From: Acidimicrobiaceae bacterium
Lineage (GTDB): Bacteria > Actinomycetota > Acidimicrobiia > Acidimicrobiales > Aldehydirespiratoraceae
Assembly: GCA_026710865.1 (NCBI GenBank)
Contig: JAPOQG010000204.1
Coordinates: 9,318 to 73,317, forward strand
DNA: 64,000 nucleotides
Direction: 5' to 3'
Positions 1-61,837 of this stretch are shown in pieces; positions within the stretch are counted from its first letter, which is position 1, and each line of letters starts with the position of its first letter. The notes below the pieces were generated by a model, which worked only from the letters and a program-made list of their open reading frames with translations, was not told the DNA's origin and searched no databases. A program made the position numbers and the translations under genes.

Positions 1-280
1 CCACGCCGAGGCCATGGCCCGGCGCGGTTGGCCGGAGGCCTCCGCTCGGATCGTGGAGCTCTGGCGGGCCGGTCGCCGGGACGAGGCCGTCGCCGCGGTC
101 CCCGACGACTACATCGACTCCCAGTCACTGGTCGGCCCGGCCCAGCGCATCCGGACCCGCTGGCCCGGCGCGATTCCCGCGGGCCTGACCGGTGCGATCA
201 TCCGGTGCCGCCACGACGAGGGCCTGAGGCTGGCCGCCGAGCTGGCCGGCACCGGAGACACTGCGGGGGCACGCCCATGA
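1..280 (+). CDS. 3' end of a luciferase-like (LLM class, probably F420-dependent) oxidoreductase; the 5' end lies outside the window
   Basis: The frame is open to the window edge and stops at TGA 278-280. The C-terminal sequence (..VPDDYIDSQSLVGPAQRIRTRW..GAIIRC..) resembles LLM-family C-termini. Two more LLM genes are present in the window. Confidence 0.5.
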   Translation, partial: HAEAMARRGWPEASARIVELWRAGRRDEAVAAVPDDYIDSQSLVGPAQRIRTRWPGAIPAGLTGAIIRCRHDEGLRLAAELAGTGDTAGARP

Positions 281-338
281 CCGCCGAGCTGGTCCGTGCC
301 GGAGACACTGCGGGGGCACGCCCATGACCGACGAGCTG
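252..338. repeat. 47-bp-period tandem duplication of the stop/start junction
   Basis: 252-291 and 299-338 match at 39/40 positions. Both copies contain CCGGAGACACTGCGGGGGCACGCCCATGACCG, including the ATGA overlap. Confidence 0.95.
277..327 (+). other. 16-codon bridge ORF (MTAELVRAGDTAGARP) created by the junction duplication
   Basis: The ATG at 277 overlaps the upstream TGA (278-280). Its own TGA (325-327) overlaps the crotonase ATG (324-326). Confidence 0.3.
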
Positions 339-1124
339 ATCCTCATCGACGAGCCGGCCGAGCACCTCCGCCGCATCACACTCAACCGCCCCCACAGGCG
401 CAACGCCATCTCCACGCCGATGCGGACCGCGCTGCTCGATGCCCTGCACCGCTTCGACGACGACCCCGAGGCCAGGGTCACCATCGTGCGGGGCGCGGGG
501 CCCTGCTTCTCTTCGGGCTACGACCTGTCAGGCGGGCTCATGGACGATCCGCCCTACCCGTCCGCGCCCGGCGACGGCCAGTGGACCCGCCAGGCCAGCG
601 ACGGCTGGTTCTCCATCTGGGACCTGGCCAAGCCTGTCATCGCGCAGGTGCACGGGTACGCCTACGCCGGAGGCACCGAGCTGGCCACGGCCTGCGACCT
701 GGTGTACGTGGCCGACGACGCCCGCATCGGCTATCCGGTGGTGCGGGTGGCCTCGCCCCCGGACTGGCAGTACCACACGCCGCTGATGGGCCTGCGCCAC
801 GCCATGGAGGCCATGCTCACCGGCGACTCCGTCAGCGGCGCCGAGGCGGCCCGGATGGGGTGGGCCAACCGGGCCCACCCGCCCGAGGAGCTGGAGGGGG
901 CCGTGCTCGCGGTGGCGGAGCGCATCGCCGGCGTGGCCACGGACCTGGCCCAGATCAACAAGCGCATGGTGCACCGGGCCTTCGACGTGCTCGGGGGACG
1001 GGCCGCCATCCGGTCTGGTCAGGAGTTCCAGGCCCTTGCCGCTCACCAGCCGTCGGTGCGGGCCGCCATGGCCGACCTGCTGGGCTCGGTCAAGAAGGCC
1101 ATCGGCGACACCCCGCCGGCCTGA
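324..1124 (+). CDS. enoyl-CoA hydratase/isomerase (crotonase) family protein
   Basis: 266 aa. The N-terminus has the typical crotonase pattern LNRPHRRNAI..L..AL..FDDDPEARV.IVRGAGPCFSSGYDL. Confidence 0.9.
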   Translation: MTDELILIDEPAEHLRRITLNRPHRRNAISTPMRTALLDALHRFDDDPEARVTIVRGAGPCFSSGYDLSGGLMDDPPYPSAPGDGQWTRQASDGWFSIWDLAKPVIAQVHGYAYAGGTELATACDLVYVADDARIGYPVVRVASPPDWQYHTPLMGLRHAMEAMLTGDSVSGAEAARMGWANRAHPPEELEGAVLAVAERIAGVATDLAQINKRMVHRAFDVLGGRAAIRSGQEFQALAAHQPSVRAAMADLLGSVKKAIGDTPPA

Positions 1125-1659: not shown

Positions 1660-4600
1660 GTGCGGATCCGTCATCTCTGCAACGGCACAGAACAGACCGT
1701 GGAGATCGACTCCCGCCTCGAGGGCTACACCGTGGCGGACCTCATGGCGGCGCTCGGGAGCCGACTGGACGGACCCGGCGACAGCTCCGCCGGCGTCAGG
1801 GTCGACGGATGCTGGCACAGTGCCGGCACTCCCCTGTCCGCGGTCCCGATCTGGGAGGGGGCCCTGCTCGAGATCGCTCCCGGCTCCGGGCAGTCCCCCT
1901 CCCAGTCGCCGAAGCAGCCGGCCGGACCGGCACTCGGGGCATCGAGCCGCGGACAGGTTCTCGCGGTTGCCGCAGAGCAGCAGCCGGCCGGACCGGCACT
2001 CGGGGCATCGAGTCGCGGACAGGTTCTCGCGGTTGCGGCAGAGCAGCAGCCGGTTGGCTCGGCGCTTGGGGCATCGAGCCGCGGCCAGGTCCTCGCGGTC
2101 ACCGCGGGCTTGCGGGCCGGATCCCGTCACCGACCGCCCCCGATAGGAACCTGGACGATCGGTCGCTCGGTGAGCTGCGATGTGGTGCTCGACGACCCTG
2201 CGGTCTCCCGCCGCCATACCCGGGTCAGCGTGGAGAGGCCCGGAGCCCGGCCGGTAGTCGCCGACCTCGGCTCGCACAACGGCACCGTCGTGGCCGGCCG
2301 CGCCGTGACCGACCCGGCACCGGTGCCGGCCGGCGCCACCGTCCGGCTCGGCGCCACCTGCCTGCAATGGCGGACCGAGAGGGACGACGCGCCCGCGGCG
2401 GTGAGCGCCGGTCTGGGTGCCGCCGCGGGACGGATCCCGTTCAACCGGCCGCCTCGCCGCCGGCCCCCGACCTCGCCGGCGACGTTGCGGGTGCCGGCGG
2501 AGCCGCCGCCCCGGCCCGAGCCCGAGCCCCTGTCGTGGGCCGGGATCGCGTTGCCGGTGGTGGCCGGCCTGGTGCTGGCTCTGGTGTGGAACCCGTTCAT
2601 GGCAGTGTTCGCGGCCCTCGGCCCGCTGATCACCATCGGCACCTGGCTGGAGCGGCGCCGGCGCAGCACCCGAGCCCATCGGCGGGCCTGCGAGGACACG
2701 GCCGCGCGGGTGAAGGGCTTCGTGGCCGCGCTGCCGGCGGAGGCGGCCGCCGAGCGTCTCAGGCGGTTGGCGCTGGTCCCGGACCTGGCCGAGCTGGTGC
2801 GCCGGGCGGAGACCCCGTCGCTGCGTTGCTGGGAGCGCCGCCAGCGCGATCCCGACGCCATGCGACTCGGTGTCGGCACGGCCGATGTCCCCTACTCGCC
2901 GCCGATCGAGGTGGACGGCGACGGTGGCGCCGCGCCGCAGGCGCTCGAGGCGCTGGAGGCTCTGGAACCACTGCGCGATGTCCCGGTGGCCGTGTCGCTG
3001 GCGCCCGGAGACGTCGTCGGCATAGTCGGGCCGCTGCCCGCGGCCCGGGCGGTGGCCCGGTCCCTGGTGCTGCAGGCGGCTGTGCTTCACGGCCCGGCCG
3101 ACCTGGCCGTCGCGGGCCTCGCTCCCGGCGGGGCGCGGGAATGGTCGTGGCTGCGCTGGCTTCCCCATACCGCGGATGCGGCCGGCGGCGGCCCGGGCGC
3201 GCTGGCAGCCACCGAGGGCAGCGCCATGAGGGCCGCGGCGGAGACGGCCGCCGCGGGTTGCGCCCAGCGGATCCTGCTGGCCGTCATCGACGGAACCGAG
3301 GCGCTCACAGGCCGGTCCGCGCCGGGCCGCACGCTGCTCGCCCTGAGAAGCACCGCCGGGATCATCGTCACCACCGACGTGTGCGACCTGCCGTCCAACT
3401 GCACCACCATCGTGCAGGTCGATCATTCCGCCGGAGGGCTGCGGCTGGTCGACCCCCGCTCCGCGGCGAAGCTGGCGCCCCTCGTCGCGTGGGGCGTCAC
3501 AATCGCGACCGCCACCCATGCGGCGGCCCGCCTGGCTCGCCTCGACGACCCCGAGCTGGGTTCGCACCACGCCAACCTGCCCGAGTCGGTGTCGCTCGTG
3601 GACCTCATGGATGGCGAGCCGACCCCTGAGTCGGTGTCGCAACGCTGGCAGGCGACTCGGGGCACCGCTGACCTGCGGGTGCCGATCGGCGCCACAGCCG
3701 AGGGACCGCTGGTGCTCGACCTCGTGGTCGACGGCCCCCACCTGCTGATCGGCGGCACGACGGGCTCGGGCAAGTCGGAGCTGCTGCGCTCGCTCGTCGC
3801 CGGGCTGGCGCTGTCGGCTGATCCCGACCATCTCGCCCTGGTGCTCATCGACTACAAGGGCGGCGCGGCCTTCGACCGGTGCGCGGAGATGCCCCACGTC
3901 GCCGGGATGGTGACCGATCTCGACGACCGCCTGGCTGAGCGGGCGCTGGTGTGCCTCGAGGCCGAGTTGCGCCACCGCGAGGAGCGGCTCCGGGCTGCCG
4001 GAGCCGAGGATCTCGCCGCCTTCCGGGCCCGCAGCGGTCCCGCCGCCGAGCCGCTTCCAAGGCTGGTGGTCGTGGTGGACGAGTTCGCCACGCTGGCTGC
4101 GGAGTTGCCCGACTTCCTGCACTCGCTGGTGGGGATCGCCCAGCGGGGCCGCAGCCTCGGCGTCCACATGGTGCTGGCCACCCAGCGGCCCGCAGGGGTT
4201 GTGACCGATGACATCAGGGCGAATACATCGTGCCGGATCGCGCTGCGAGTGACCGATCGCCACGACTCCAACGATGTGATCGACTCGCCGGCCGCGGCCC
4301 GGATCCCCCGGCAGCGTCCCGGTCAGGCGCTGGCCCGGCTCGGTCCGGGTGAGCTGGTCGCCTTCCAGTCGGCCCTGGTGACCGGCACCACGCCGCGGGG
4401 CTCCGGCGGTCTGCGGGTGGGGGCCGGCGGCCAGGCTCCGGGCCAGGATCCCTCCGAGTTCCCCGGCGGATCCGGCTCCGAACCGGGAGGCGACCCGGTG
4501 GAGCGCAACGACCTGGACGCCGTGGTGGACGCGGTGACGGTCGCGCACCGGCGCCGAGGAGGTCGAGCGCCGCGCCCGCCCTGGCCGAAGCCGCTGCCCC

Positions 4601-19834: not shown

Positions 19835-21964
19835 GTGGATAGAACCGGATCCTTCCCGCGTCGCCAGGCCCGCACCCGGCGCTTCACGCTGGGCGAGCCC
19901 CGCGACATCCGGGTGTCCGACGACGGCTCCCGGGTGGCGTTCCTGCGCTCGTCGGGACCCGTCGACCCGGCCAACTCTCTGTGGGTGCTGGATGTGGCCG
20001 CCGGTTCGGAGCGCCTGGTGGCCGACCCCGGCCGGCTCACCGGCGACCACGGCGACCGGGATCTGCCGAAGGCCGAGCGGGCCCGCCGCGAGCGGGTGCG
20101 GGAGACCGGCTCCGGCATCGTGTCCTATGACGCCGACGCGGATCTGGGGACCGCGGTGTTCTCGCTGGGTGGGAGGCTGTGGCGGGCTGACCTGACCGGA
20201 GGCGACCGGCGGCCCGAGCCCCTCGCGTCCCGGCCTGGAGCGTTCGACCCGCGGCTCTCGCCCGGCGGCTCGCGGGTCGCCTACGTGGCCGGTCCGGTCC
20301 TGCGGGTGACCGGGGACGCCGCCGAAGACCGGGCCGTCGCCGAGGAGCCCGGCGAGACGGTGAGCTGGGGATCGGCCGAGTTCGTGGCCGCCGAGGAGAT
20401 GGGCCGCACGAGGGGCCACTGGTGGTCTCCCGACGGCCGGCGCCTGCTGGCGGCCCGGGTGGACACCGCCGGTGTGCCGCGCTGGTGGATCCCCGATCCG
20501 GCGTCGCCCGACGCCGAGCCGGTCGAGATGCGCTATCCGGCCGCCGGCGCGGCCAACGCCGAGGTGCGCTTGGCCGTTCTCGACGCCGGGGGCGACGACG
20601 GCGGCGCCGGGACCGGCCCGGTGGACGTGGCCTGGGACGAGGGCGGCTGGGAATACCTGGCCGGGGTGCGCTGGAGCGCCGACGGGCTGATCCTGACGGT
20701 CCAGACCCGGGATCAGCGCACGCTCGGCGTGTTGGAGGCCGACCCGGACACCGGGTCCTGCCGCCTCCTGCGCCGTGTCACCGACGACGCCTGGGTGGAA
20801 CTCGTTCCAGGCGTGCCGAGGCTGGTGGGATCCGGGCTCGTCACGGTCGAGGACCGGGGCAGCGCGCGCCGGCTGTGCGTGGACGGCGAGGCCCTCACGC
20901 CCGACGACATGCAGGTCCGGGCCGTTCACCATGCCGACGACGCAGGTGTCGTCGTCACCGCCTCAGCCGACCCGGCCGAGGTCCATGTCGCCCGGGTGGG
21001 CTGGGACGGCTCCGTTTCGTGGCTCACCGACGGCCCGGGCGTCAACGGGGCGGCTGCCGGTGGCGGCACGGTCGTGCTCGCCGGGCGGACGCTGGAGCAT
21101 GCAGGCCGCCGCTGCACGGTCGCGTCGCGACTGAGGCCCGGCCGGGACCACTGCATCGCTTCGTTCGCCGCGGATCCCGGCCTGGACCTGAACGTCGAGA
21201 TCGTCGAGCTTGGCGCCCGCAAGCTGGTGTCGGCCCTCGTGATGCCCTCGGCGGCGGCCTCCACCGGCGACGGGCCACTGCCGGTGCTGCTGGATCCCTA
21301 CGGCGGGCCCCACGCCCAGCGGGTGCAGCGGGCCGAGGCCCTGTTCCACACCTCGCAGTGGTTCGCCGACCAGGGATTCGCGGTGCTGGTGGTGGACGGC
21401 CGGGGCACGCCGGGCCGGGGCCCGGCCTTCGAGCGGGCCGTGCGGGGCGACCTGGCCGGCCTCGTCCTCGAGGACCAGATCGACGCCTTGAGGGCCGCGG
21501 CCGTCATCGAGCCGCGCCTGGACCTGTCGAGGGTGGCCATCCGGGGCTGGTCCTTCGGCGGCTACCTGGCCGCGCTCGGAGTCCTGCGACGGCCCGACGT
21601 CTTCTCAGCTGCTGTCGCGGGCGCGCCGGTCACCGACTGGCGGCTCTACGACACCCACTACACCGAGCGCTATCTCGGCCACCCCGCCGAGGAGCCGGCC
21701 AACTACGAGCGCACCGACCTGACCCCGCTCGCGCCCGGCCTGGAACGCCCCCTGATGCTCATCCACGGCCTGGCCGACGACAACGTGGTGGCGGCCCACA
21801 CCCTGCGGCTGTCGCGGGCTCTGACCGAGGCAGGACGGCCCCACACCGTGCTGCCTCTGTCGGGCGTAACCCACATGACCCCCCAGGAGGAGGTCGCCGA
21901 GAACCTGCTGATCATCCAGCTTCGCTTCCTGCAAGACGCCCTGCGAGTGCCCGCAAATGGGTGA
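19835..21964 (+). CDS. S9 family serine peptidase (dipeptidyl-peptidase IV-like)
   Basis: 709 aa. A DPP-IV-type beta-propeller N-terminus (WSPDGRRLL..) and a C-terminal hydrolase with nucleophile motif GWSFGGY and LIHGLADDNV. Confidence 0.85.
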   Translation: MDRTGSFPRRQARTRRFTLGEPRDIRVSDDGSRVAFLRSSGPVDPANSLWVLDVAAGSERLVADPGRLTGDHGDRDLPKAERARRERVRETGSGIVSYDADADLGTAVFSLGGRLWRADLTGGDRRPEPLASRPGAFDPRLSPGGSRVAYVAGPVLRVTGDAAEDRAVAEEPGETVSWGSAEFVAAEEMGRTRGHWWSPDGRRLLAARVDTAGVPRWWIPDPASPDAEPVEMRYPAAGAANAEVRLAVLDAGGDDGGAGTGPVDVAWDEGGWEYLAGVRWSADGLILTVQTRDQRTLGVLEADPDTGSCRLLRRVTDDAWVELVPGVPRLVGSGLVTVEDRGSARRLCVDGEALTPDDMQVRAVHHADDAGVVVTASADPAEVHVARVGWDGSVSWLTDGPGVNGAAAGGGTVVLAGRTLEHAGRRCTVASRLRPGRDHCIASFAADPGLDLNVEIVELGARKLVSALVMPSAAASTGDGPLPVLLDPYGGPHAQRVQRAEALFHTSQWFADQGFAVLVVDGRGTPGRGPAFERAVRGDLAGLVLEDQIDALRAAAVIEPRLDLSRVAIRGWSFGGYLAALGVLRRPDVFSAAVAGAPVTDWRLYDTHYTERYLGHPAEEPANYERTDLTPLAPGLERPLMLIHGLADDNVVAAHTLRLSRALTEAGRPHTVLPLSGVTHMTPQEEVAENLLIIQLRFLQDALRVPANG

Positions 21965-21991
21965 CGACCTGTCGCGTGGCAGCGGTGTCAC

Positions 21992-22086
21992 TCCCGCTCT
22001 TGTTCGCTTCGCTCACGGGCCGCTCGGGCCACGGCCTCGCTCCGTGTGTGCCGCGCCGTCCCGCCTATCCGCTCGGCCTCTGCGAG
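21992..22086 (+). repeat. interspersed intergenic repeat, copy a (medium-length form)
   Basis: Begins TCCCGCTCTTGTTCGCTTCGCTCACGGGCCGC and ends CCGCTCGGCCTCTGCGAG. It shares both ends with the copies at 34306, 39344 (inverted) and 61721. Confidence 0.85.
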
Positions 22087-22140
22087 TGCCAACATTGGCG
22101 CCTCGAGAGCAGCCGCCGCGAGACCGCGAGGGAGCAGCCG

Positions 22141-29952: not shown

Positions 29953-31092
29953 TTAGGAGTTGGCGTCAGGGCGCTTGGCATCGGCCTCGGCCTCACTCGG
30001 ATCTGGGCGCTTGGCATCGGCCTCGGCCTCACTCGGATCTGTGGGCGGGCACATGATTCTTGTGGCCGGAACCGGCACAGAGTCGAGCGTGAGCGTCGCG
30101 TCGCGCATGACGCAGTCGAGATGCGCTCGCGCCGCGACGGTTCCTCCGTAGGCGATCGAATTGCCGAGAGCTATGTGGGCGGTCCCCAGCGACGACTCGG
30201 TCTCCATCGCGACCTCGCAGACATGACCGGCGGGGTTGAGCCCTAGGGAGACCTCGGCGAAGTTGGTCATCAGCTCGTCCCCGCAGCGCTCGAGCATGCC
30301 GGTGAGGCGGCGGATCTCGGGTCCGGCAGCGTCGACGAGGCGCCCCTCGTCGAACGTGAGCACCACCGGGTCGGCCAGCGGGCCCACCCCCATGAACAGC
30401 AGATCAGCGTCGATGACAGCGACACCGTGGGTGGTGCCCTCCACCGGCGCGGTGCCCGCCTCGATGTCGGGAGGCGCCATGTAGGACCCGGCCGTCCGGC
30501 AGATCCCGTGAAGCACACGGCCAGGCCGTCCCGATACCGAGCCTCGGAGATCGGTGCCGGCCGCGCTGGTGAGTCGAAACTCCGACGCCTGAGTCCACAG
30601 TTCGCCGATCTGGTCGGCCCGCGCCCGGAGTTCGTCGAAATCGACCGACAGGGGACCGTCGGTCCGCAGCGTGTCCAACGTGATCCCCGGCATGGCCAGG
30701 TAGCGGACGCCCACCGCGTTGGCGTCGCGGCGGGCCTGGTTCGAGCCGATGAAGATCGATGTCAACTCGATCACGGCATCGCTCTGTGCCATCGTTCTGG
30801 CCACATCGGGGGAGACTTCCGCTCCCGGAATGTCGAGCGGGGCCATCTCCAGTGTCGAGACGACCGCCGACCGCGCCTGCGCCCCGGCGCGCAACAGTTC
30901 CGCGACCCGGCGGTCGCTGCCGGAGTCGGTCATCAGCACCACGCGCTCACCCGGTCGGACGCCCAGGCAGCGGTCGAGCACGTTGGCCACCGCGGCGGGT
31001 ACGTCCATACGCTGCCTCCTTGGTAGCGGCGCAGCGGCACGACCATCAAACGGCACCGACGATGCCGCCGCTCCCGTCCGTGTCGCGCTCAC
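29953..31092 (-). CDS. aminopeptidase-T-like (M29/COG2309-type) protein; the start is uncertain
   Basis: 379 aa from 31092. An alternative ATG at 31008 gives MDVPAAVANVLDRCLGVRPGERVVL, the typical family N-terminus. The C-terminus carries a 12-aa tandem duplication. Confidence 0.6.
   Translation of the reverse strand: MSATRTGAAASSVPFDGRAAAPLPRRQRMDVPAAVANVLDRCLGVRPGERVVLMTDSGSDRRVAELLRAGAQARSAVVSTLEMAPLDIPGAEVSPDVARTMAQSDAVIELTSIFIGSNQARRDANAVGVRYLAMPGITLDTLRTDGPLSVDFDELRARADQIGELWTQASEFRLTSAAGTDLRGSVSGRPGRVLHGICRTAGSYMAPPDIEAGTAPVEGTTHGVAVIDADLLFMGVGPLADPVVLTFDEGRLVDAAGPEIRRLTGMLERCGDELMTNFAEVSLGLNPAGHVCEVAMETESSLGTAHIALGNSIAYGGTVAARAHLDCVMRDATLTLDSVPVPATRIMCPPTDPSEAEADAKRPDPSEAEADAKRPDANS
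29969..30040. repeat. perfect 2 x 36-bp in-frame tandem duplication at the 3' end of the aminopeptidase-like gene
   Basis: GGGCGCTTGGCATCGGCCTCGGCCTCACTCGGATCT occurs at 29969-30004 and again at 30005-30040. It encodes DPSEAEADAKRP twice. Confidence 0.95.
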
Positions 31093-31325
31093 CTGCGGTC
31101 AGCATCGCGTGCCGCGAGGATCTCCTCCGTAGTGACGGCTGCGTCTGACGATTCCTTGCGCTGTCGAACCTCTCGCATCAACATCTCGACCGAGGGGAAG
31201 GACACGAGGCGCTCCAGTTCCCCTCGGAGGTACTCCTGCATGGATTGGCGCTTCGCCGCGGCTCGGGCCGCCAACTCGTCGCGGACCTCTTCGGGGACGT
31301 TCCTGATGGTGATCTGGACCGGCAT
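31089..31325 (-). CDS. ribbon-helix-helix antitoxin-like protein (FitA/VapB-type), no cognate toxin adjacent
   Basis: 78 aa. MPVQITIRNVPEEVRDELAARAAAKRQSMQEYLRGELERL is a typical FitA-like RHH antitoxin N-terminus. The stop overlaps the long-form start of the aminopeptidase-like gene. Confidence 0.7.
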   Translation of the reverse strand: MPVQITIRNVPEEVRDELAARAAAKRQSMQEYLRGELERLVSFPSVEMLMREVRQRKESSDAAVTTEEILAARDADRR

Positions 31326-31331
31326 GACAGC

Positions 31332-31360
31332 ATTATGACTGCGTTGCCGGCGATTTACAA
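31332..31360 (-). promoter_or_regulatory. candidate promoter giving a leaderless transcript of the RHH gene
   Basis: On the minus strand: TTGTAA (31360-31355), 17-nt spacer, CATAAT (31337-31332), 6 nt, ATG (31325). It lies in an AT-rich spacer with no RBS. Confidence 0.4.
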
Positions 31361-31379
31361 GCAGCTATTTCCTTTACTA

Positions 31380-32423
31380 TCAGGTGACCACGGTCAGCTC
31401 GGTGGCCTTGACCGAGGCCCAGATGGTGAGCCCCGGACACAGCCCGAGTTCGTCGGCGGAGCGGCGGGTGACGTCGGCCCTCACTTCGGCCGGCGCGCCG
31501 AGATGCACCCGAGCCCTCTCCCCGTCGACATCGACCCGCTGGAGCTCGGCCTGCCAGGTGTTGCGGGCGCTGCCTGCAGGCCGGTCGCGATGCAGGGTCA
31601 CGGCGTGGGCCGGGAAGGTCACGTAGACGGGCCCGGCTGCCTCGGTGGCCACGGTGAGAACCAGACCGGTCTCGGCGGTGACGGCTGTGCCCTGGGCCTG
31701 ACCCGGCACCACGTTCGCGCCCAGGAACGTGGCTGCCCACTCGCAGCCCGGCGAAGCGGTCACCTCCGCGAGCGAGCCTCGGCCGGCCACCGCGCCACCG
31801 TCGAGCACGACCAGTTGGCGGGCCAGCGTGGCCACATCGACGGGATCATGGGTGATCAGCAGGGTGTGGCGGGCCGGCGACTCGCCGATGAGAGCCCGCA
31901 GCTGGGCCCGGCCCGAGGAGTCCACCGAGGCCAGCGGCTCGTCCACGATCAGCACGCCGGGCTCGGGGGCCAGGGCCCGGGCGATGGCCACTCGCTGGCG
32001 CTGGCCGCCTGAGAGCGCCGCCGGGCGCCTGGACCAGGTCTCAGAGTCAAGACCGACGCGGTCGAGCATCTCACGGGCCCGTCGCCGGGCCGCAGCCCGG
32101 TCCGCGCCGGCCCGGCGAAGTCCGAAGGCCACGTTGTCGATCACCCTGAGGTGGCCGAAGAGCCGGTGGTCCTGGAACACCATGCCGACACTGCGCCGGT
32201 GGGCCGGCACGAACACTCGGGCGGCGGGGTCGTCGGCCACCGTGTCCCCGATGACCAGGCGGCCGCTGGCCAGACGGTCGAGCCCGGCCACGGTCCGTCC
32301 CAGCGTCGTCTTGCCCGAGCCGTTGGCTCCGACGACGGCCGTCACGCCCTCGCCGATCTCCAGCCCGTCAACCCGCAGCATCCAGCCGGACCGGGCCACG
32401 CACCCGTCGAGCAAGACCGTCAT
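31380..32423 (-). CDS. modC: molybdate ABC transporter ATP-binding protein with a C-terminal TOBE domain
   Basis: ATG at 32423 (MTVLLDG..). Walker A GANGSGKTT, signature LSGGQRQRVAIARAL, Walker B LIVDEP, and a TOBE-like tail. Follows modA and modB. Confidence 0.85.
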   Translation of the reverse strand: MTVLLDGCVARSGWMLRVDGLEIGEGVTAVVGANGSGKTTLGRTVAGLDRLASGRLVIGDTVADDPAARVFVPAHRRSVGMVFQDHRLFGHLRVIDNVAFGLRRAGADRAAARRRAREMLDRVGLDSETWSRRPAALSGGQRQRVAIARALAPEPGVLIVDEPLASVDSSGRAQLRALIGESPARHTLLITHDPVDVATLARQLVVLDGGAVAGRGSLAEVTASPGCEWAATFLGANVVPGQAQGTAVTAETGLVLTVATEAAGPVYVTFPAHAVTLHRDRPAGSARNTWQAELQRVDVDGERARVHLGAPAEVRADVTRRSADELGLCPGLTIWASVKATELTVVT

Positions 32424-32590
32424 CGCGGCATCACCAGCAAGAATTGGCAGCAATATGCACGCATAGCGAGCACTGCGCTGCCAATTCGGATCGGTGCCCT
32501 GGCCGCAGGATGGAATTGGCAGCAATATGCACGCATAGCGTGCGAAACGCTGCCAGTTCCGGCTGGGGTGGACGGAGCGGCGACGGTCAT
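32420..32590 (-). other. 56-codon bridge ORF spanning the whole modB-modC spacer
   Basis: The ATG at 32590 overlaps the modB TGA (ATGA). Its own TGA (32422-32420) overlaps the modC ATG (ATGA). Peptide: MTVAAPSTPAGTGSVSHAMRAYCCQFHPAARAPIRIGSAVLAMRAYCCQFLLVMPR. GC3 is only moderate. Confidence 0.3.
32441..32560. repeat. two tandem 72-bp-period hairpin units in the modB-modC spacer
   Basis: Unit 1: an 11-bp perfect stem, GAATTGGCAGC (32441-32451) with GCTGCCAATTC (32477-32487). Unit 2: a 12-bp stem, 32512-32523 with 32549-32560, with one wobble. The loops share AATATGCACGCATAGCG. Confidence 0.9.
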
Positions 32591-33468
32591 CGCGGCATCC
32601 AGCGGTCGCGCAGGGTCACCAGCACCGCCAGGGCCACCGCCATCAGCACCAGGCTGATGGCCACCGCCGCCTCCGGGTTGCGCTCCAGGGCCAGGTAGGT
32701 CTCCAGCGGAAGGGTGCGGGTGCGGCCCGGGAAGTTCCCGGCGAAGGTGAGCGTGGCCCCGAACTCTCCGAGGGCTCGCGCCCACGACAGCGCGGCGCCG
32801 GCCGCCAGCGCGGGACGGATCGTGGGCAGCACGACATGCACGACGGTGGCCCAGGGTCCGGCGCCCAGCGTTGCGGCCGCCTCGTCGAGGTCGTCGCCGG
32901 CCTGGCGCAGGGCGGCCTCGACCGTCACGACGAAGAAGGGCAGGGCCACGAACGCGGCCGCAACCACGGCTCCGGCGGTGGTGAATGGGAGGCTGACGCC
33001 GAACCAGGTGTCGAGCCACTGGCCGACCAGGCCCCGCCGACCCAGCGCGAACAGCAGGGCGGTGCCGGCCACCACCGGCGGCAGCACCATGGGCAGCATC
33101 ACCACCGCTCGCGCCACCCGGGGGGACCGCAATCGGCGCCGGGCCAACACGAACGCCAGGGGAAGGCCCAACACGACACACGCCGCAGTGGCCGCCACGC
33201 TCACCACCAGCGACAACCGCAGCGCCTCCAGCACCTCGGACTCGCCCAGCAGCGTCGGCAGCGACGACCACGGCGTCCGCTGCAACAGCCCGACGATGGG
33301 CAGCGCCAAGAGGCCGAGGGCCACGAAACCCACGACGGTCAGCGCGGCGGGCAACTGGCTGGCGGACCGTGCCGGACCGGGCTCAGCGGCGTCGTCGGGC
33401 GGACTCGCGGCCGTCAGCGCCTGGATGTGCCGTGGACGTTGTCGTTGTCTCATGCTGGTACCGGCCAT
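32587..33468 (-). CDS. modB: molybdate ABC transporter permease
   Basis: 293 aa and polytopic, with an EAA-type loop (..LDEAAATLGAGPW..). Sits between modA and modC. The exact start is uncertain. Confidence 0.85.
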   Translation of the reverse strand: MAGTSMRQRQRPRHIQALTAASPPDDAAEPGPARSASQLPAALTVVGFVALGLLALPIVGLLQRTPWSSLPTLLGESEVLEALRLSLVVSVAATAACVVLGLPLAFVLARRRLRSPRVARAVVMLPMVLPPVVAGTALLFALGRRGLVGQWLDTWFGVSLPFTTAGAVVAAAFVALPFFVVTVEAALRQAGDDLDEAAATLGAGPWATVVHVVLPTIRPALAAGAALSWARALGEFGATLTFAGNFPGRTRTLPLETYLALERNPEAAVAISLVLMAVALAVLVTLRDRWMPR

Positions 33469-34259
33469 ACGGGCCGGCGGTCCGAGCCCAGGAAGCCGTA
33501 TGCATAGAGGGCCTTGGCGCCGACGCTGCCGAGCACCGTGAAGTCCTCGATCACCGCCTGTATGTGCGGCGGGGGTTCTGCCGACACCGACGCTATGTAG
33601 TAGCCGTTGACGTGGTCGCTCAACTCCGGGGCGTCGACGGTGGCGAGTCCCGCCATCCTCGCGTCGGTTGCGTACACAAGTCCGGCATCCAGCTCACCCA
33701 GCGACAGCTTGGTTGCCAGGGCGCGCACGTTGAGCTCCAGCGTGTCCGCGGAGGGCGCGATTCCCGCTTCGTCGAGCGCTTGGCGGGCCAGTGTCCCGCA
33801 CGGGACCTCTGCTGCGCACAGGCCGGTCAGGAGGTCTCCGCGGCCCAGGTCGGCCAGCCCGGTGACCCCGCCCGGATTGCCGGCAGGAGTTGCCAGCACG
33901 AGCACGTTGACCGCGATCAGCACCGGCTCTCCATGCACCGACCCTTCGGAAACGGCCTGCTCCATGGTGGCCGAATTGGCGGTGATCAGAACGTCGGCGC
34001 CGGCGCCGGCGGCGAGCTGGGCCACCAGCGTTGAGCTCCCCGCGATCACGGGGGTCACGCTGTCACGGCCCTCGAACACGGTCTCGATCACGTCAGTAAG
34101 CGACGAGGCGGCCATCACCACCACATCCCGGCCGGCACCATCGTCCGCGGTGTCGCCGCATCCCGACACGAGCATCGCCACCGCGGCCGACACGACCGCT
34201 GCCGCCCTCAGTCCGGTCGGCCCCCGGTGGCACCTTCCGGTGACGCTGACGGCCGTCAT
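33450..34259 (-). CDS. modA: molybdate ABC transporter substrate-binding lipoprotein
   Basis: ATG at 34259. Lipobox LVSGCGD, then VVVMAASSLTDV..E.VF is ModA-like. The ORF part upstream of 34259 merely reads through the intergenic repeat. Confidence 0.85.
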   Translation of the reverse strand: MTAVSVTGRCHRGPTGLRAAAVVSAAVAMLVSGCGDTADDGAGRDVVVMAASSLTDVIETVFEGRDSVTPVIAGSSTLVAQLAAGAGADVLITANSATMEQAVSEGSVHGEPVLIAVNVLVLATPAGNPGGVTGLADLGRGDLLTGLCAAEVPCGTLARQALDEAGIAPSADTLELNVRALATKLSLGELDAGLVYATDARMAGLATVDAPELSDHVNGYYIASVSAEPPPHIQAVIEDFTVLGSVGAKALYAYGFLGSDRRPVWPVPA

Positions 34260-34305
34260 AGGGACCGAATCTACCCAAGTCGTGATGCGGCGCTGCTTCC
34301 GTGTC

Positions 34306-34423
34306 TCCCGCTCTTGTTCGCTGCGCTCGCGGACCGCCCAAACCAAGGCAACACAGCCCACGGCATGGCTCGTTGGCTCCCAGATTCTAGGGAATCGTGC
34401 TCCATCCGCCCGGCCTCTAGGGT
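34306..34423 (+). repeat. interspersed intergenic repeat, copy b (long form)
   Basis: TCCCGCTCTTGTTCGCTGCGCTCGCGGACCGCCCAAACCAAGGCAACACAGCCCACGGC....CCCGGCCTCTAGGGTG. The first ~60 nt are nearly identical to copy d. Confidence 0.85.
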
Positions 34424-35539
34424 GTGGCGATGCTCGCACTAGCTCAAACATCGGCCAGTACAGGACTCGCGGACGCCTGCGGTCAGACGAACCGCGGCTT
34501 CGTCTGCGAGAGGGTCTTCGACTGGACCGGAAACGCCGGCTTGGCCACCGCGGCCGACTGGCTGCTCGACCGTCCCATCCGCATCGCGCTGGTCCTGGTG
34601 GCGGCCTGGATCGTCACCCGCATCGTCAAGCGGGCCATCTCGCGGTTCACCACGCGCATCGCTGCCGCACCGAGCAGCTCGCGGTTGCAGAAGCTGCGAG
34701 AGAAGGGTCCGGTGCGCGCGCTCTCCGATGAGGTCGAACGCTCCCGGTCCGAGTCCCGGGCCGAGACCCTCGGCAGCGTGCTGCGCAGCGTGGCGGTCGC
34801 TCTCATCTGGACGTTCGCGGCACTGATCGTGTTGGGCGAGATCGGCGTGAACCTCGGGCCGCTGATCGCCGGGGCCGGCATCGGCGGCATCGCACTGGGC
34901 TTCGGCTCCCAGGCGATAGTGAAGGACTTCCTGTCGGGCCTGTTCATGCTGATCGAGGACCACTACGGCGTCGGCGACTACGTCGACCTGGGCTACGCCT
35001 CGGGCACGGTCGAGGAGATGTCGCTGCGTTCCACCACGATCCGGGACATCAGGGGCACGGTGTGGCACGTCCCCAACGGCGAGATCTCACGGGTCGGGAA
35101 CTACTCGCAGCTGTGGTCGAAGGCGCTGGTCGACATCGAGGTGGCCTACGGCACCGACGCCCGCCTCGCGATGGGCATCATGCAACAGGTGGCCAACGAC
35201 CTCTGGAACGACCCGGAGTGGGGCGGCGACGAGCTCTCGGAGGCGCCGACGGTGTTCGGCATACAGAGCCTGGGCGCGTCGGGCGTCGGCCTCCGGCTGG
35301 CGGTGAAGACCGAGCCGTCGATGCAGTGGGCGGTGGAGCGGGAGATCCGGCTGCGCATCAAAGAAGCCTTCGACGCGGCCGGCATCGAGATCCCGTTCCC
35401 GCAGCAGACCACCTGGCTCCGCGACGACAGCGGATTCTCCGCCACCACGCTCTCAGAAGCCGAGCAGGACGCCTTCCGGGCGCTCTACGAGGAGCAGCAC
35501 GGCCCGAAGCCCGAGGACGACTTCTCCGAGGAGCGCTAG
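34424..35539 (+). CDS. mechanosensitive ion channel (MscS family) protein
   Basis: 371 aa with an N-terminal TM region and the conserved core GIALGFGSQAIVKDFLSGLFMLIEDHYGVGDYV..G.VEE..LR.T..R...G....VPNG. The start may be the ATG at 34430. Confidence 0.85.
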   Translation: MAMLALAQTSASTGLADACGQTNRGFVCERVFDWTGNAGLATAADWLLDRPIRIALVLVAAWIVTRIVKRAISRFTTRIAAAPSSSRLQKLREKGPVRALSDEVERSRSESRAETLGSVLRSVAVALIWTFAALIVLGEIGVNLGPLIAGAGIGGIALGFGSQAIVKDFLSGLFMLIEDHYGVGDYVDLGYASGTVEEMSLRSTTIRDIRGTVWHVPNGEISRVGNYSQLWSKALVDIEVAYGTDARLAMGIMQQVANDLWNDPEWGGDELSEAPTVFGIQSLGASGVGLRLAVKTEPSMQWAVEREIRLRIKEAFDAAGIEIPFPQQTTWLRDDSGFSATTLSEAEQDAFRALYEEQHGPKPEDDFSEER

Positions 35540-39343: not shown

Positions 39344-39384
39344 AGAGGCCGAGCGGCCAGTGAGCGCAGCGAACAAGAGCGGGA
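39344..39384 (-). repeat. interspersed intergenic repeat, copy c (41-bp mini form, inverted orientation)
   Basis: The reverse complement reads TCCCGCTCTTGTTCGCTGCGCTCACTGGCCGCTCGGCCTCT. This is the left end joined directly to the right end of the long form. Confidence 0.85.
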
Positions 39385-61577: not shown

Positions 61578-61720
61578 CGGCGACCGGGGCTCCTCCTTCC
61601 CTGCGACTCACCCCTGGAGGGGCCCTTACAGGGCTCGGCGGCCCGGTCTGGAGGGGACTGGGCCGCCGAGCCATGCCCGCGCCCGGGCGGCCTGGAGGCT
61701 GGTCTCGGAGGCGTTGACAT

Positions 61721-61837
61721 TCCCGCTCTTGTCAGCTGCGCTCACGGGCCGCCCAAACCAGGCGACACTGCCCACGGCCTCGCTCGGCGACTGGCGAGTC
61801 TTCAGACCATGTGCCGCCTACTCGCTCGGCCTCTAGG
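61721..61837 (+). repeat. interspersed intergenic repeat, copy d (long form)
   Basis: TCCCGCTCTTGTCAGCTGCGCTCACGGGCCGCCCAAACCAGGCGACACTGCCCACGGCCTCGCTC....CTCGCTCGGCCTCTAGG. The last bases supply the TAG stop (61833-61835, minus strand) of the adjacent gene. Confidence 0.85.

What the first reader, a model, noticed from the sequence alone, without database searches (positions are those of the whole stretch)
32415..32599. modB-modC ATGA junction duplicated 167 bp apart, with two 72-bp hairpin units in between and one open relay ORF across the whole insert
The 18-mer GAC(C/G)GTCATCGCGGCATC occurs at 32415-32432 (covering the modC start) and again at 32582-32599 (covering the modB stop). On the coding strand both copies read GATGCCGCGATGAC.GTC, with an ATGA overlap.

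This implies that modB and modC were originally coupled by a single ATGA and were then separated by ~150 bp of lower-GC DNA. That DNA consists of two tandem 72-bp units, each folding into an 11-12-bp stem (GAATTGGCAGC...GCTGCCAATTC).

A 56-codon frame runs from the first ATGA to the second. The spacing, 167, is 2 mod 3 as required, and the internal 72-bp duplication is in frame. Ribosomes terminating modB could therefore relay through to modC. GC3 of the bridge is only moderate, so the open frame rather than the peptide may be what is maintained.

The flanking duplication resembles a target-site duplication, so the hairpin unit could be a small mobile element.
Basis: partly seen in the sequence, partly recalled or inferred. 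Interest (0 to 1): 0.65.

Follow-up and report, generated by a model that had tools for sequence, protein, structure and literature searches.

The report
Mobile hairpin repeat splitting modB–modC overlap
Two copies of a previously uncatalogued mobile hairpin repeat of marine and sponge-associated Acidimicrobiia sit inside the modB–modC stop/start overlap. The overlap was duplicated, and a junk reading frame runs from one copy to the other, apparently passing ribosomes on to modC, much as proposed for mycobacterial MIRUs.

Summary
modB (32587..33468, -) and modC (31380..32423, -) each carry an ATGA overlap inside a duplicated junction, 167 nt apart. Between the copies lie two 47-nt hairpins and an open 56-codon frame.

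The hairpin is not local. The outer stem GAATTGGCAGC/GCTGCCARTTC with a variable, compensating inner stem-loop occurs at more than 113 places in Acidimicrobiia genomes. It occurs as 1-5 tandem units with a 71-72 nt period, almost always just after a stop codon. It has no Rfam match, and no paper in the searched library describes it.

Of 14 modB–modC orthologues, 6 have one plain ATGA junction and 8 are filled. The duplication is 24 nt of target. An empty site (L200) nests with 97-100% bootstrap among filled ones, so the insert can be lost precisely.

Six of the 8 filled sites keep an exact ATGA-to-ATGA frame (one as a chain of two ORFs) despite differently placed indels. The other two end within 11 nt of the modC start. 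The encoded peptide is not conserved.

The same NTGA–ORF–NTGA layout recurs at about six other operon junctions (Fisher p = 2e-4).

This is a new repeat family behaving like MIRUs. The relay is inferred, not measured.

The parts
33450..34451 (-). modA, the molybdate-binding protein and first gene of the modABC operon. The start codon is uncertain.
   Evidence: NCBIfam TIGR01256 modA, E 5.9e-12. PF13531 lies on the orthologous gene.
32587..33468 (-). modB permease. Its stop TGA is at 32589..32587.
   Evidence: TIGR02141 modB_ABC, 214 bits, above the cutoff. GC1/2/3 is 0.75/0.55/0.90.
32582..32605 (-). Left (modB-side) copy of the duplicated 24-nt junction, CCGCTGGATGCCGCGATGACCGTC. It contains ATGA no. 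1 (32590..32587), which is the modB stop plus the bridge-ORF start.
   Evidence: Direct repeat D2. The sequence was read. It equals the single junction of empty orthologues such as L114...CCGCTGGATGCCCCGATGACGGTC....
32560..32581 (-). 22-nt linker between the left junction copy and hairpin unit 1. It ends ...CCCCAGCCG, as in L196, L019 and L202.
   Evidence: Junction print-outs.
32513..32559 (.). Hairpin unit 1 (modB-proximal), 47 nt: GAACTGGCAGC-[25 nt]-GCTGCCAATTC on the coding strand.
   Evidence: the repeat finder D1/I2. Covariance model R1 scores 62.5 bits, E 1e-15, higher on the - strand. Fold energy is -24.9 kcal/mol.
32488..32512 (.). 25-nt linker between the two units.
   Evidence: Array linkers across the family are 24-25 nt.
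32441..32487 (.). Hairpin unit 2 (modC-proximal), 47 nt.
   Evidence: the repeat finder D1/I3. R1 scores 62.7 bits. Fold energy is -27.8 kcal/mol in the mRNA sense.
32415..32440 (-). Right (modC-side) copy of the duplicated junction, TTGCTGGTGATGCCGCGATGACGGTC, directly abutting unit 2. It contains ATGA no. 2 (32423..32420), which is the bridge-ORF stop plus the modC start.
   Evidence: In L019 the right copy is 21/24 identical to the left copy and also abuts the unit.
32420..32590 (-). Bridge ('relay') ORF of 56 codons, MTVAAPSTPAGTGSVSHAMRAYCCQFHPAARAPIRIGSAVLAMRAYCCQFLLVMPR*. It runs from ATGA no. 1 to ATGA no. 2 through both hairpins.
   Evidence: Translation. No Pfam or NCBIfam hit. No codon-position GC signature. 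Orthologous bridges are open but read the units in other frames.
31380..32423 (-). modC, the ATPase subunit, 347 aa.
   Evidence: TIGR02142 modC_ABC, E 2e-61. Identical to database protein P0001, which is carried by 18 contigs.

Best explanation
The 149 bp between modB and modC are two units of a dispersed, REP/MITE-like palindromic repeat that populates intergenic DNA of marine and sponge-associated Acidimicrobiia. The unit is a 47-48 nt hairpin. Its 11-bp outer stem is conserved (GAATTGGCAGC/GCTGCCARTTC), and its inner stem-loop varies with compensating changes.

An ancestor of this lineage had modB and modC overlapping in a single ATGA. A piece of such a repeat array (13-22 nt, unit, 24-25 nt linker, unit) entered that junction with duplication of 24 nt of target. 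The ATGA and the 16 nt before it therefore now exist on both sides (shown).

The inferred mechanism runs in three steps. A ribosome terminating modB at UGA no. 1 reinitiates at the overlapping AUG, exactly as it once did for modC. It then translates a meaningless 56-codon frame through both hairpins, melting them and keeping the gap covered by ribosomes. It terminates at UGA no. 2 and reinitiates at the overlapping modC AUG.

What is selected is therefore the phase (spacing of 2 mod 3) and the absence of stops, not the peptide. The insert can be lost again precisely by recombination or slippage between the two 24-nt copies, which restores the single ATGA (shown by phylogeny).

This is the strategy proposed for mycobacterial MIRUs, carried here by an unrelated, palindromic element.
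For: **Repeat family**
- More than 113 genomic stretches match, where about 1 is expected by chance. Nearly all are Acidimicrobiia MAGs.
- There are 125 arrays of 1-5 units, with periods of 71 nt (52 cases) and 72 nt (35 cases). Units usually lie 0-35 nt after a stop codon.
- Copy number varies between orthologous sites, from 0 to 4 units.
- The inner stem covaries. Pair 16-33 shows six standard pair types, with both sides changed in 34 sequences.
- There is no Rfam family and no paper.

**Junction history**
- Among 14 orthologues, 6 are empty with one ATGA and 8 are filled.
- The duplication is 24 nt and abuts the unit.
- In the bootstrapped NJ tree, {window, L196, L200} has 100% support. {L196 filled, L200 empty} has 97% and {L114, L197 empty} has 99%.
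- The arrays of window, L196, L019 and L202 share linker motifs. This points to one gain followed by precise losses.

**Relay**
- Spacings are 167, 158, 155, 155 and 116 nt, plus 77+71 nt as two chained ORFs in L199. All are 2 mod 3 and open.
- The indels are placed differently: window 31/25/17, L196 22/24/18, L019 22/24/15, L040 20/24/17.
- P(at least 6 of 8 in phase at 1/3 each) = 0.02.
- In the two exceptions the bridge ends 7 nt before the modC AUG (L202) or 8 nt after it (L205).

**Generality**
- In 19 co-directional arrays the upstream stop is [AGT]TGA. In 16 of them the ORF from that start spans all units.
- In 8 of them that ORF's stop overlaps the first start codon of the downstream gene. 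The background from control frames and other arrays is 11/152, giving Fisher p = 2e-4. Counting independent junctions (6 of about 14) gives p = 9e-4.
- NCBIfam profiles start within about 10 residues of those starts for L087, L029, L102 and L010.
- The empty orthologue of the L003/L069 site (L009) has a single ATGA.

**Background knowledge**
- Termination-reinitiation coupling needs overlaps or very short gaps (PMC10666635).
- MIRUs insert at start codons with a -4 coupled ORF (PMC12548453, citing Supply et al. 1997).
Against: - No expression or ribosome data exist. Everything rests on sequence from metagenome-assembled genomes.
- An open frame is cheap here. About 70-75% of units are stop-free in all three frames on either strand, and every co-directional array has at least one open sense frame.
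- The phase argument rests on 8 related loci, with perhaps 5-6 independent indel histories, so p is only about 0.02-0.05.
- Two of the 8 filled sites are not in exact phase.
- The duplicated 24 nt also copies whatever initiation signal modC had, so modC might initiate independently.
- Long flanking duplications are absent at most other loci.
- No transposase was identified.
- The constant 71-72 nt period is unexplained.
- Downstream start codons at the other relay junctions were assigned from sequence and profile coverage only. One of them (L060, AspRS) may start 33 nt further on.
Confidence: 0.68

Rival explanations
1. The insert is a tolerated passenger. It is selfish or neutral repeat DNA, and modC is translated independently because the 24-nt duplication carried its own initiation region along. 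The open, in-phase frame is a by-product of a stop-poor repeat and of chance.
For: Units lack stops in most frames on both strands. Two of the 8 filled orthologues are out of exact phase yet retained. The insert was lost repeatedly without visible consequence. The bridge has no coding signature.
Against: Six of 8 junctions are in phase despite non-3n indels at different places (p about 0.02). In the two exceptions the bridge still ends within 11 nt of the modC start. The exact NTGA–ORF–NTGA layout is enriched at other junctions (p = 2e-4). No Shine-Dalgarno-like or promoter consensus lies before modC.
Confidence: 0.2
2. The hairpins act mainly at the RNA level, like enterobacterial REP elements. 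They would form a stable intra-operon stem-loop that protects the upstream modAB message from 3' exonucleases or attenuates read-through. This would set a modAB:modC expression ratio, with the relay frame secondary. This reading is compatible with the main explanation for the family as a whole.
For: Most of the 125 arrays lie just after a stop codon, including 22 between convergent genes where no relay is possible. One strand is G/T-rich, so its RNA hairpin is more stable (-27.7 against -21.7 kcal/mol, 160 of 165 units). That strand is the sense strand in 42 against 20 co-directional arrays (p = 0.007). The commonest mismatch in the outer stem is T·G.
Against: There is no U-tract or terminator consensus. 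A third of co-directional arrays have the weaker orientation. This reading does not explain phase conservation at modB–modC or the NTGA brackets elsewhere. A ribosome translating the bridge would melt the hairpin.
Confidence: 0.25
3. The bridge ORF encodes a functional small protein, for example an accessory subunit of the transporter.
For: The ORF is open and translationally coupled, and cysteine-rich motifs repeat within it (AMRAYCCQF twice).
Against: Orthologues read the same units in different frames, giving unrelated peptides (RIGSVLLAMRA..., NWQRFAPYACILLPI..., ELAASCSLCVHSAANS...). There are no Pfam or NCBIfam hits. GC3 is 0.60 against 0.90 in the neighbouring genes. The ORF is absent from 6 of 14 orthologues.
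Confidence: 0.02
4. The palindromes are a protein operator (for example for a molybdate regulator) or a miniature CRISPR-like array specific to this operon.
For: The palindromic repeats are regularly spaced (47-nt repeat, 24-25-nt spacer).
Against: The same hairpin lies next to over 100 unrelated genes, including ribosomal proteins, acyl-CoA ligases, cobT and aspS. Linkers within an array are near-identical rather than unique. Arrays hold 1-5 units and are scattered round the chromosome. The inner sequence differs between orthologous sites. There is no match in viral contigs.
Confidence: 0.02

Closest known systems
MIRU, mycobacterial interspersed repetitive units (Supply et al. 1997, Mol Microbiol 26:991; summarised in PMC12548453 and PMC3184786)
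   Same: Both are short (40-100 bp) units scattered through the genome and often tandem with variable copy number. Both lie between genes of one operon. The unit carries an ORF whose start and stop overlap the stop and start of the flanking genes by 4 nt. Filled and empty sites occur in relatives. Both are read as a way to insert without breaking translational coupling.
   Different: This element lives in a different class (Acidimicrobiia, not Mycobacterium). Its unit is a strong 47-48 nt palindrome with an invariant 11-bp outer stem, whereas MIRUs are described as direct repeats with only imperfect inverted repeats. It also occupies convergent and divergent intergenic regions. Its target duplication here is 24 nt, against tetranucleotide direct repeats reported for MIRU. 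The reading frame through its unit is not fixed. Sequence relatedness to MIRU was not tested.
REP / REPIN elements mobilised by RAYT transposases (enterobacteria, Pseudomonas)
   Same: Both are imperfect palindromes of tens of nucleotides in extragenic DNA just after genes, at many copies per genome, singly or in clusters. One strand tolerates G·T mismatches. Both have a possible role as RNA stem-loops at 3' ends.
   Different: No RAYT or any other transposase was found near the units. REPs are not reported to make long target duplications or to sit inside stop/start overlaps with a relay ORF. The regular 71-72 nt tandem period is not a REP feature I can document.
MITEs that end up inside reading frames: Rickettsia palindromic elements (RPE), Correia/NEMIS, RUP/BOX/SPRITE (reviewed in PMC3184786)
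   Same: Both are small non-autonomous palindromic elements with terminal inverted repeats. They can be co-translated with host genes because they lack stop codons. Presence and absence vary between relatives.
   Different: At 47 nt the unit is below the usual MITE size. No parent insertion sequence with the same ends is known. The element does not fuse into a protein. Instead it forms a separate ORF bracketed by two stop/start overlaps.
Translational coupling by termination-reinitiation at ATGA overlaps, and engineered 'bicistronic design' leader ORFs (PMC10666635, PMC12548453)
   Same: A short upstream ORF delivers the ribosome to the next start codon and removes inhibitory RNA structure.
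   Different: Here two such junctions operate in series, created by a duplication, with the intervening ORF made of mobile repeat DNA.

Membership tests
MIRU-type intercistronic repeat (functional class) | Short unit lying between co-transcribed genes, dispersed at many loci. | tested here: met
   The hairpin occurs in more than 113 stretches. 71 of 125 arrays lie between co-directional genes.
MIRU-type intercistronic repeat (functional class) | An ORF through the unit whose start and stop overlap the stop and start of the flanking genes (-4). | tested here: met
   This holds at modB–modC in window, L196, L019, L040, L203 and L199. It also holds at L087, L029, L010, L102/L095 and L003.
MIRU-type intercistronic repeat (functional class) | Variable number of tandem units, and filled and empty sites between relatives. 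| tested here: met
   Orthologous sites carry 0-4 units. At modB–modC, 8 sites are filled and 6 are empty.
MIRU-type intercistronic repeat (functional class) | Sequence homology to the Mycobacterium MIRU consensus. | not tested
The host class differs and the unit architecture (perfect 11-bp inverted ends) differs from the published description (PMC3184786).
REP/REPIN–RAYT system | Short imperfect palindrome, extragenic, many copies per genome. | tested here: met
   At least 8-12 blocks per complete chromosome, spread along it.
REP/REPIN–RAYT system | A cognate Y1 (RAYT) transposase gene flanked by the repeats. | tested here: inconclusive
   Genes lying between neighbouring arrays were inspected. 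They are ribosomal proteins L21/L27, an SDR and a PIN toxin-antitoxin pair, with no transposase. Whole genomes could not be scanned.
REP/REPIN–RAYT system | Insertion without target duplication. | tested here: not met
   There is a 24-nt duplication at modB–modC and 10-13 nt flanking repeats at L082, L057 and L110. Most other loci do show none.
MITE | Terminal inverted repeats. | tested here: met
   The ends are GAATTGGCAGC ... GCTGCCAATTC, invariant or nearly so in the 92 units aligned. The search pattern required most of this, so the invariance is partly circular.
MITE | Target-site duplication of fixed short length at every copy. | tested here: not met
   Flanking repeats of at least 12 nt occur at only 4% of arrays, against 0% in controls. 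No common short duplication was seen.
MITE | A related autonomous insertion sequence with the same ends. | not testable with these tools
   This needs whole-genome searches.
CRISPR array | Unique spacers, long arrays, a leader and cas genes. | tested here: not met
   Linkers within an array are near-identical. Arrays hold 1-5 units at over 100 scattered loci.
Intrinsic terminator | GC-rich hairpin followed by a T-run. | tested here: not met
   No terminator-like sites were found in 31300-34700. The units are followed by G-rich, not T-rich, sequence.
Any Rfam RNA family | A match to a curated covariance model. | tested here: not met
   There is no hit at E <= 1 in 31000-35000 and none at gathering score in the whole window.

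The most novel reading that the evidence does not exclude
The hairpin is a new kind of miniature mobile element built to be invisible to translation. Under this reading it is stop-free in all frames and enters stop/start overlaps, or the first codons of a gene. Its insertion machinery makes a staggered cut of about 24 nt. That same length would set the 24-25 nt linker of every tandem array. The element could also excise precisely. This would imply an unknown transposition or repair-mediated mechanism with a fixed molecular ruler, acting genome-wide in sponge-associated Acidimicrobiia.
Probability: 0.2. Interest if true: 0.8.

Novelty: new variant of a known kind. Interest (0 to 1): 0.62.

Why it matters
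Three points stand out.

- **A natural test of ribosome relay.** Evolution has repeated one experiment many times here. It asks whether a ribosome can be handed across 116-250 nt of strongly structured RNA by a throw-away ORF bracketed by two ATGA overlaps. Filled and empty alleles of the same operon exist in close relatives, so reporter constructs can be designed directly.
- **An independent case of the MIRU idea.** MIRUs have long stood as the only example of a repeat that protects its host operon by keeping translational coupling. An unrelated, palindromic element in another actinobacterial class points to convergent evolution. It also suggests the strategy may be more widespread.
- **An uncatalogued repeat family.** The family is abundant in largely uncultured sponge symbionts, with variable tandem copy number. 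That variation could serve for strain typing. The repeat also affects gene calling: N-terminal extensions such as P0082 and P0050 run into the repeat.

Tried and rejected
1. **General target-site duplication.** I scored the best direct repeat between left and right flanks of 122 arrays against shuffled pairings. Only the modB–modC loci and three others stand out. Filled/empty alignments of intergenic sites were too diverged to show duplications.
2. **Linker as a copy of the target (T-U-T-U-T model).** Flank/linker identity is 0.38 against 0.31 in controls and fades within 3-10 nt of the unit. The model is not supported as a general rule.
3. **A longer hairpin hidden in the linkers.** There is no excess complementarity beyond the 47/48-nt unit.
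4. **Replication-strand bias of unit orientation on complete chromosomes.** Counts were 20:19 against 8:16 by chromosome half, which is not significant, and the origins are unknown.
5. **Transposase between neighbouring arrays.** Only housekeeping and toxin-antitoxin genes were found.
6. **Promoter or terminator inside the insert.** None was found.
7. **Rfam, tRNA and viral contigs.** There were no matches.
8. **A naive test of 'bridge stop overlaps a start codon of an open downstream frame'.** It proved uninformative because a control frame passed almost as often, 14 against 17. I replaced it with the stricter 'first start codon after the array' test.
9. **Other copies in the window.** Covariance model R1 with filters off finds only the two units.
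10. **Exact look-up of ModB as called from the window.** It failed because the start differs. ModC was used instead.
Full report
**Observation**

The window is high-GC (70%) DNA of an Acidimicrobiia MAG. Its ModC is 100% identical to a protein named as from 'Acidimicrobiaceae bacterium', which is carried by 18 contigs.

On the minus strand lie modA (33450..34451), modB (32587..33468) and modC (31380..32423), all recognised by NCBIfam. The modB stop and the modC start each sit in an ATGA.

The 18-mer around them is repeated 167 nt apart with one mismatch. On the coding strand the duplication extends to 24 nt, CCGCTGGATGCCGCGATGAC(C/G)GTC, and the right copy directly abuts the second hairpin.

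Between the copies are two 47-nt near-palindromes, 72 nt apart. A 56-codon frame runs from the first ATG to the second TGA. GC falls to 0.60 in the insert, and the frame has no codon-position signature.

**What the hairpin is**

About one match was expected by chance. All but one came from Acidimicrobiia MAGs: Ca. Aldehydirespirator, the sponge 'SB06xx' bins, and marine bins.

In those loci I counted 125 arrays of 1-5 units. The start-to-start period is 71 nt (52 times) or 72 nt (35 times). Arrays usually begin 0-35 nt after a stop codon. 71 lie between co-directional genes, 22 between convergent genes and 22 between divergent genes.

The outer 11-bp stem is fixed. The inner 25-26 nt fall into several subtypes that all keep a second stem through compensating changes.

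One strand is G/T-rich, so as RNA it folds better: -27.7 against -21.7 kcal/mol. That strand is the sense strand in 42 of 62 co-directional arrays (p = 0.007).

Orthologous sites differ in unit number from 0 to 4, and even in inner-loop subtype.

The family matches nothing in Rfam. It is absent from viral contigs. I found no paper describing it. In the 64-kb window the two modB–modC units are the only copies, even with an unfiltered covariance-model search.

**History of the modB–modC site**

I recovered the junction from 13 further orthologues, with ModC 73-90% identical to the window's.

- **Empty (six):** L114, L197, L198, L200, L201 and L204 have a single ...CGCTGGATGCC(C/G)CGATGACGGTC... 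junction.
- **Filled (eight):** window, L196, L019, L040, L202, L203, L199 and L205. L199 and L205 carry decayed units, and L205 has an additional nested copy of another repeat.

About 75 more distant actinobacterial modB–modC pairs nearly all overlap as NTGA with no insert. The single overlap is therefore ancestral, and the flanking repeat is a duplication of the target.

The filled arrays share linker motifs such as ...CCCAGCC next to unit 1, which argues for common descent. In a bootstrapped tree of 1,551 nt, the empty L200 is sister to the filled L196 (97%) inside a clade with the window (100%). The empty pair L114+L197 (99%) is the next branch.

At least one clean loss that restores the single ATGA is therefore well supported, and several are likely. 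Loss by slippage or recombination between 24-nt direct repeats around a palindrome is an ordinary event (inference).

**The relay**

Spacings between the two ATGAs are:

| Locus | Spacing (nt) | Phase |
|---|---|---|
| window | 167 | 2 mod 3, exact |
| L196 | 158 | 2 mod 3, exact |
| L019 | 155 | 2 mod 3, exact |
| L040 | 155 | 2 mod 3, exact |
| L203 | 116 | 2 mod 3, exact |
| L199 | 77+71 (two ORFs chained through a third ATGA) | both 2 mod 3, exact |
| L202 | 157 | out of phase; bridge stops 7 nt before the modC ATG |
| L205 | 247 | out of phase; bridge stops 8 nt inside modC (an 11-nt overlap) |

All bridges are open.

The three variable segments have different lengths in different lineages. 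Window is 31/25/17, L196 is 22/24/18, L019 is 22/24/15 and L040 is 20/24/17. Frame-shifting indels have therefore been compensated several times. Six or more of eight in phase has p = 0.02 at 1/3 each.

The units are read in different frames in different orthologues, so no peptide is conserved. None matches a protein family.

An open frame alone means little, because the units are stop-free in most frames on both strands.

**The same layout elsewhere**

Among 57 co-directional arrays close to an upstream stop, 19 have a start codon overlapping that stop ([AGT]TGA). In 16 of these the ORF from that start spans the whole array. In 8 its stop overlaps by 4 nt the first start codon of the downstream gene.

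The background from control frames and other arrays is 11 of 152, giving Fisher p = 2e-4. Collapsed to independent junctions, p = 9e-4.

Examples:

- L087: GTGA – 61 codons – ATGA (acyl-CoA ligase)
- L029: TTGA – 76 codons – ATGA (enolase-superfamily dehydratase)
- L010: TTGA – 54 codons – GTGA
- L102/L095: GTGA – 54 or 30 codons – GTGA (cobT)
- L003: ATGA – 72 codons – GTGA

Family profiles begin within about 10 residues of those starts. For the L003/L069 site, an empty orthologue (L009) again has a single ATGA.

The modB–modC case is therefore one instance of a recurrent arrangement.

**Mechanism**

Shown:

- The element is dispersed and polymorphic.
- The target was duplicated.
- The insert is lost precisely.
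- Phase is kept.

Inferred:

- Ribosomes ending modB restart at AUG no. 1, as they did for modC before the insertion.
- They translate through and unwind both hairpins. They stop at UGA no. 2 and restart at modC.
- This keeps coupling that would otherwise fail across more than 100 nt. Coupling by termination-reinitiation needs overlaps or very short gaps (PMC10666635).

The same hairpins probably also act as RNA stem-loops at ordinary 3' ends. That would explain their orientation bias and their presence between convergent genes. The two roles are compatible.

**Comparison with known elements**

The nearest precedent is the MIRU. [quoted passage not shown] 1997; see also PMC3184786).

The present element works like a MIRU but differs in several respects:

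- It is a strong palindrome with invariant ends.
- It lives in another class.
- It occurs in every kind of intergenic region.
- It made a 24-nt duplication here.

It resembles REP/REPIN and small MITEs in form. However, no transposase was found and a fixed short target duplication is lacking. It is not CRISPR, a terminator, an operator or a small-protein gene.

**Open points**

- The constant 71-72 nt period with array-specific linkers is unexplained.
- Inner loops are replaced at orthologous sites by an unknown process.
- The mobilising enzyme is unknown.

All sequences are from MAGs. The window's junction is nevertheless reproduced on independent assemblies.

**Verdict**

This is a real, well-supported feature. 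It is a new repeat family that reproduces the MIRU strategy, and the relay itself still awaits experimental test.

Noticed in passing
window 234-342 (ATGA at 277-280 and 324-327): This is a second junction duplication, without any hairpin. A 47-nt tandem repeat (47 = 2 mod 3) spans the stop/start overlap of two genes. The upstream gene ends ...GTGDTAGARP* in the first ATGA. A 16-codon chimeric mini-ORF (MTAELVRAGDTAGARP*) runs to the second ATGA, where an enoyl-CoA-hydratase-like gene starts (MTDELILIDEPAEHL...). It is the same relay logic, produced by a plain tandem duplication.
   Followed up: partly
window 21931-22110 (core 21991-22042); partial copies at 39349-39384, 61711-61752 and 34305-34337: This is a second dispersed repeat family, with core TTGTTCGCTTCGCTCACGGGCCGCTCGGGCCACGGCCTCGCTCCGTGTGTGC. 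It is present in 27 of the fetched Acidimicrobiia loci. It is tandem with a 45-nt period in L063 38-209. It appears nested inside the modB–modC insert of L205.
   Followed up: partly
L024 2357-2474, L017 156-275, L086 2278-2396 (also L015/L092 and L036/L107): Orthologous intergenic sites carry two units with the same outer stem and similar linkers. The inner stem-loops, however, are entirely different in different genomes. This suggests replacement by re-insertion or gene conversion.
   Followed up: no
window 29969-30041: A perfect 36-nt tandem duplication lies at the 3' end of the NicX-like gene 29953..31092(-). It repeats the peptide PDPSEAEADAKR.
   Followed up: no
window 1913-2099: A 66-nt tandem repeat is present at 2.8 copies and 90% identity. 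Its nature was not examined.
   Followed up: no
window 31089-31325 (-): A FitA-like ribbon-helix-helix antitoxin gene lies directly downstream of modC (PF22513, E 6.5e-11). Relatives (L197, L202, L203, L205) have a PIN toxin next to it, which is not obvious in the window.
   Followed up: no
window 32415-32426 / 32577-32588: The one mismatch between the two junction copies makes GACCGTC (left) the reverse complement of GACGGTC (right). The two junctions can therefore pair and enclose the insert, including the modC AUG, in a long-range helix (I7; MFE). L196 shares this, but L019 and L040 do not.
   Followed up: partly
L109 6842-7825; L081 2996-4510: Arrays flank the ribosomal protein genes rplU–rpmA (L109) and a PIN toxin-antitoxin pair (L081). 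In dense regions the repeat brackets whole small operons.
   Followed up: no
P0082 and P0050 (ModC orthologues of 384 and 360 aa): Gene callers have extended some ModC proteins upstream into the repeat (N-termini MRAFCCQFPLEMQAQPELAALCSLCVHSAANS... and MPLSVQFLDVA...). This is an annotation artefact caused by the stop-free units.
   Followed up: partly
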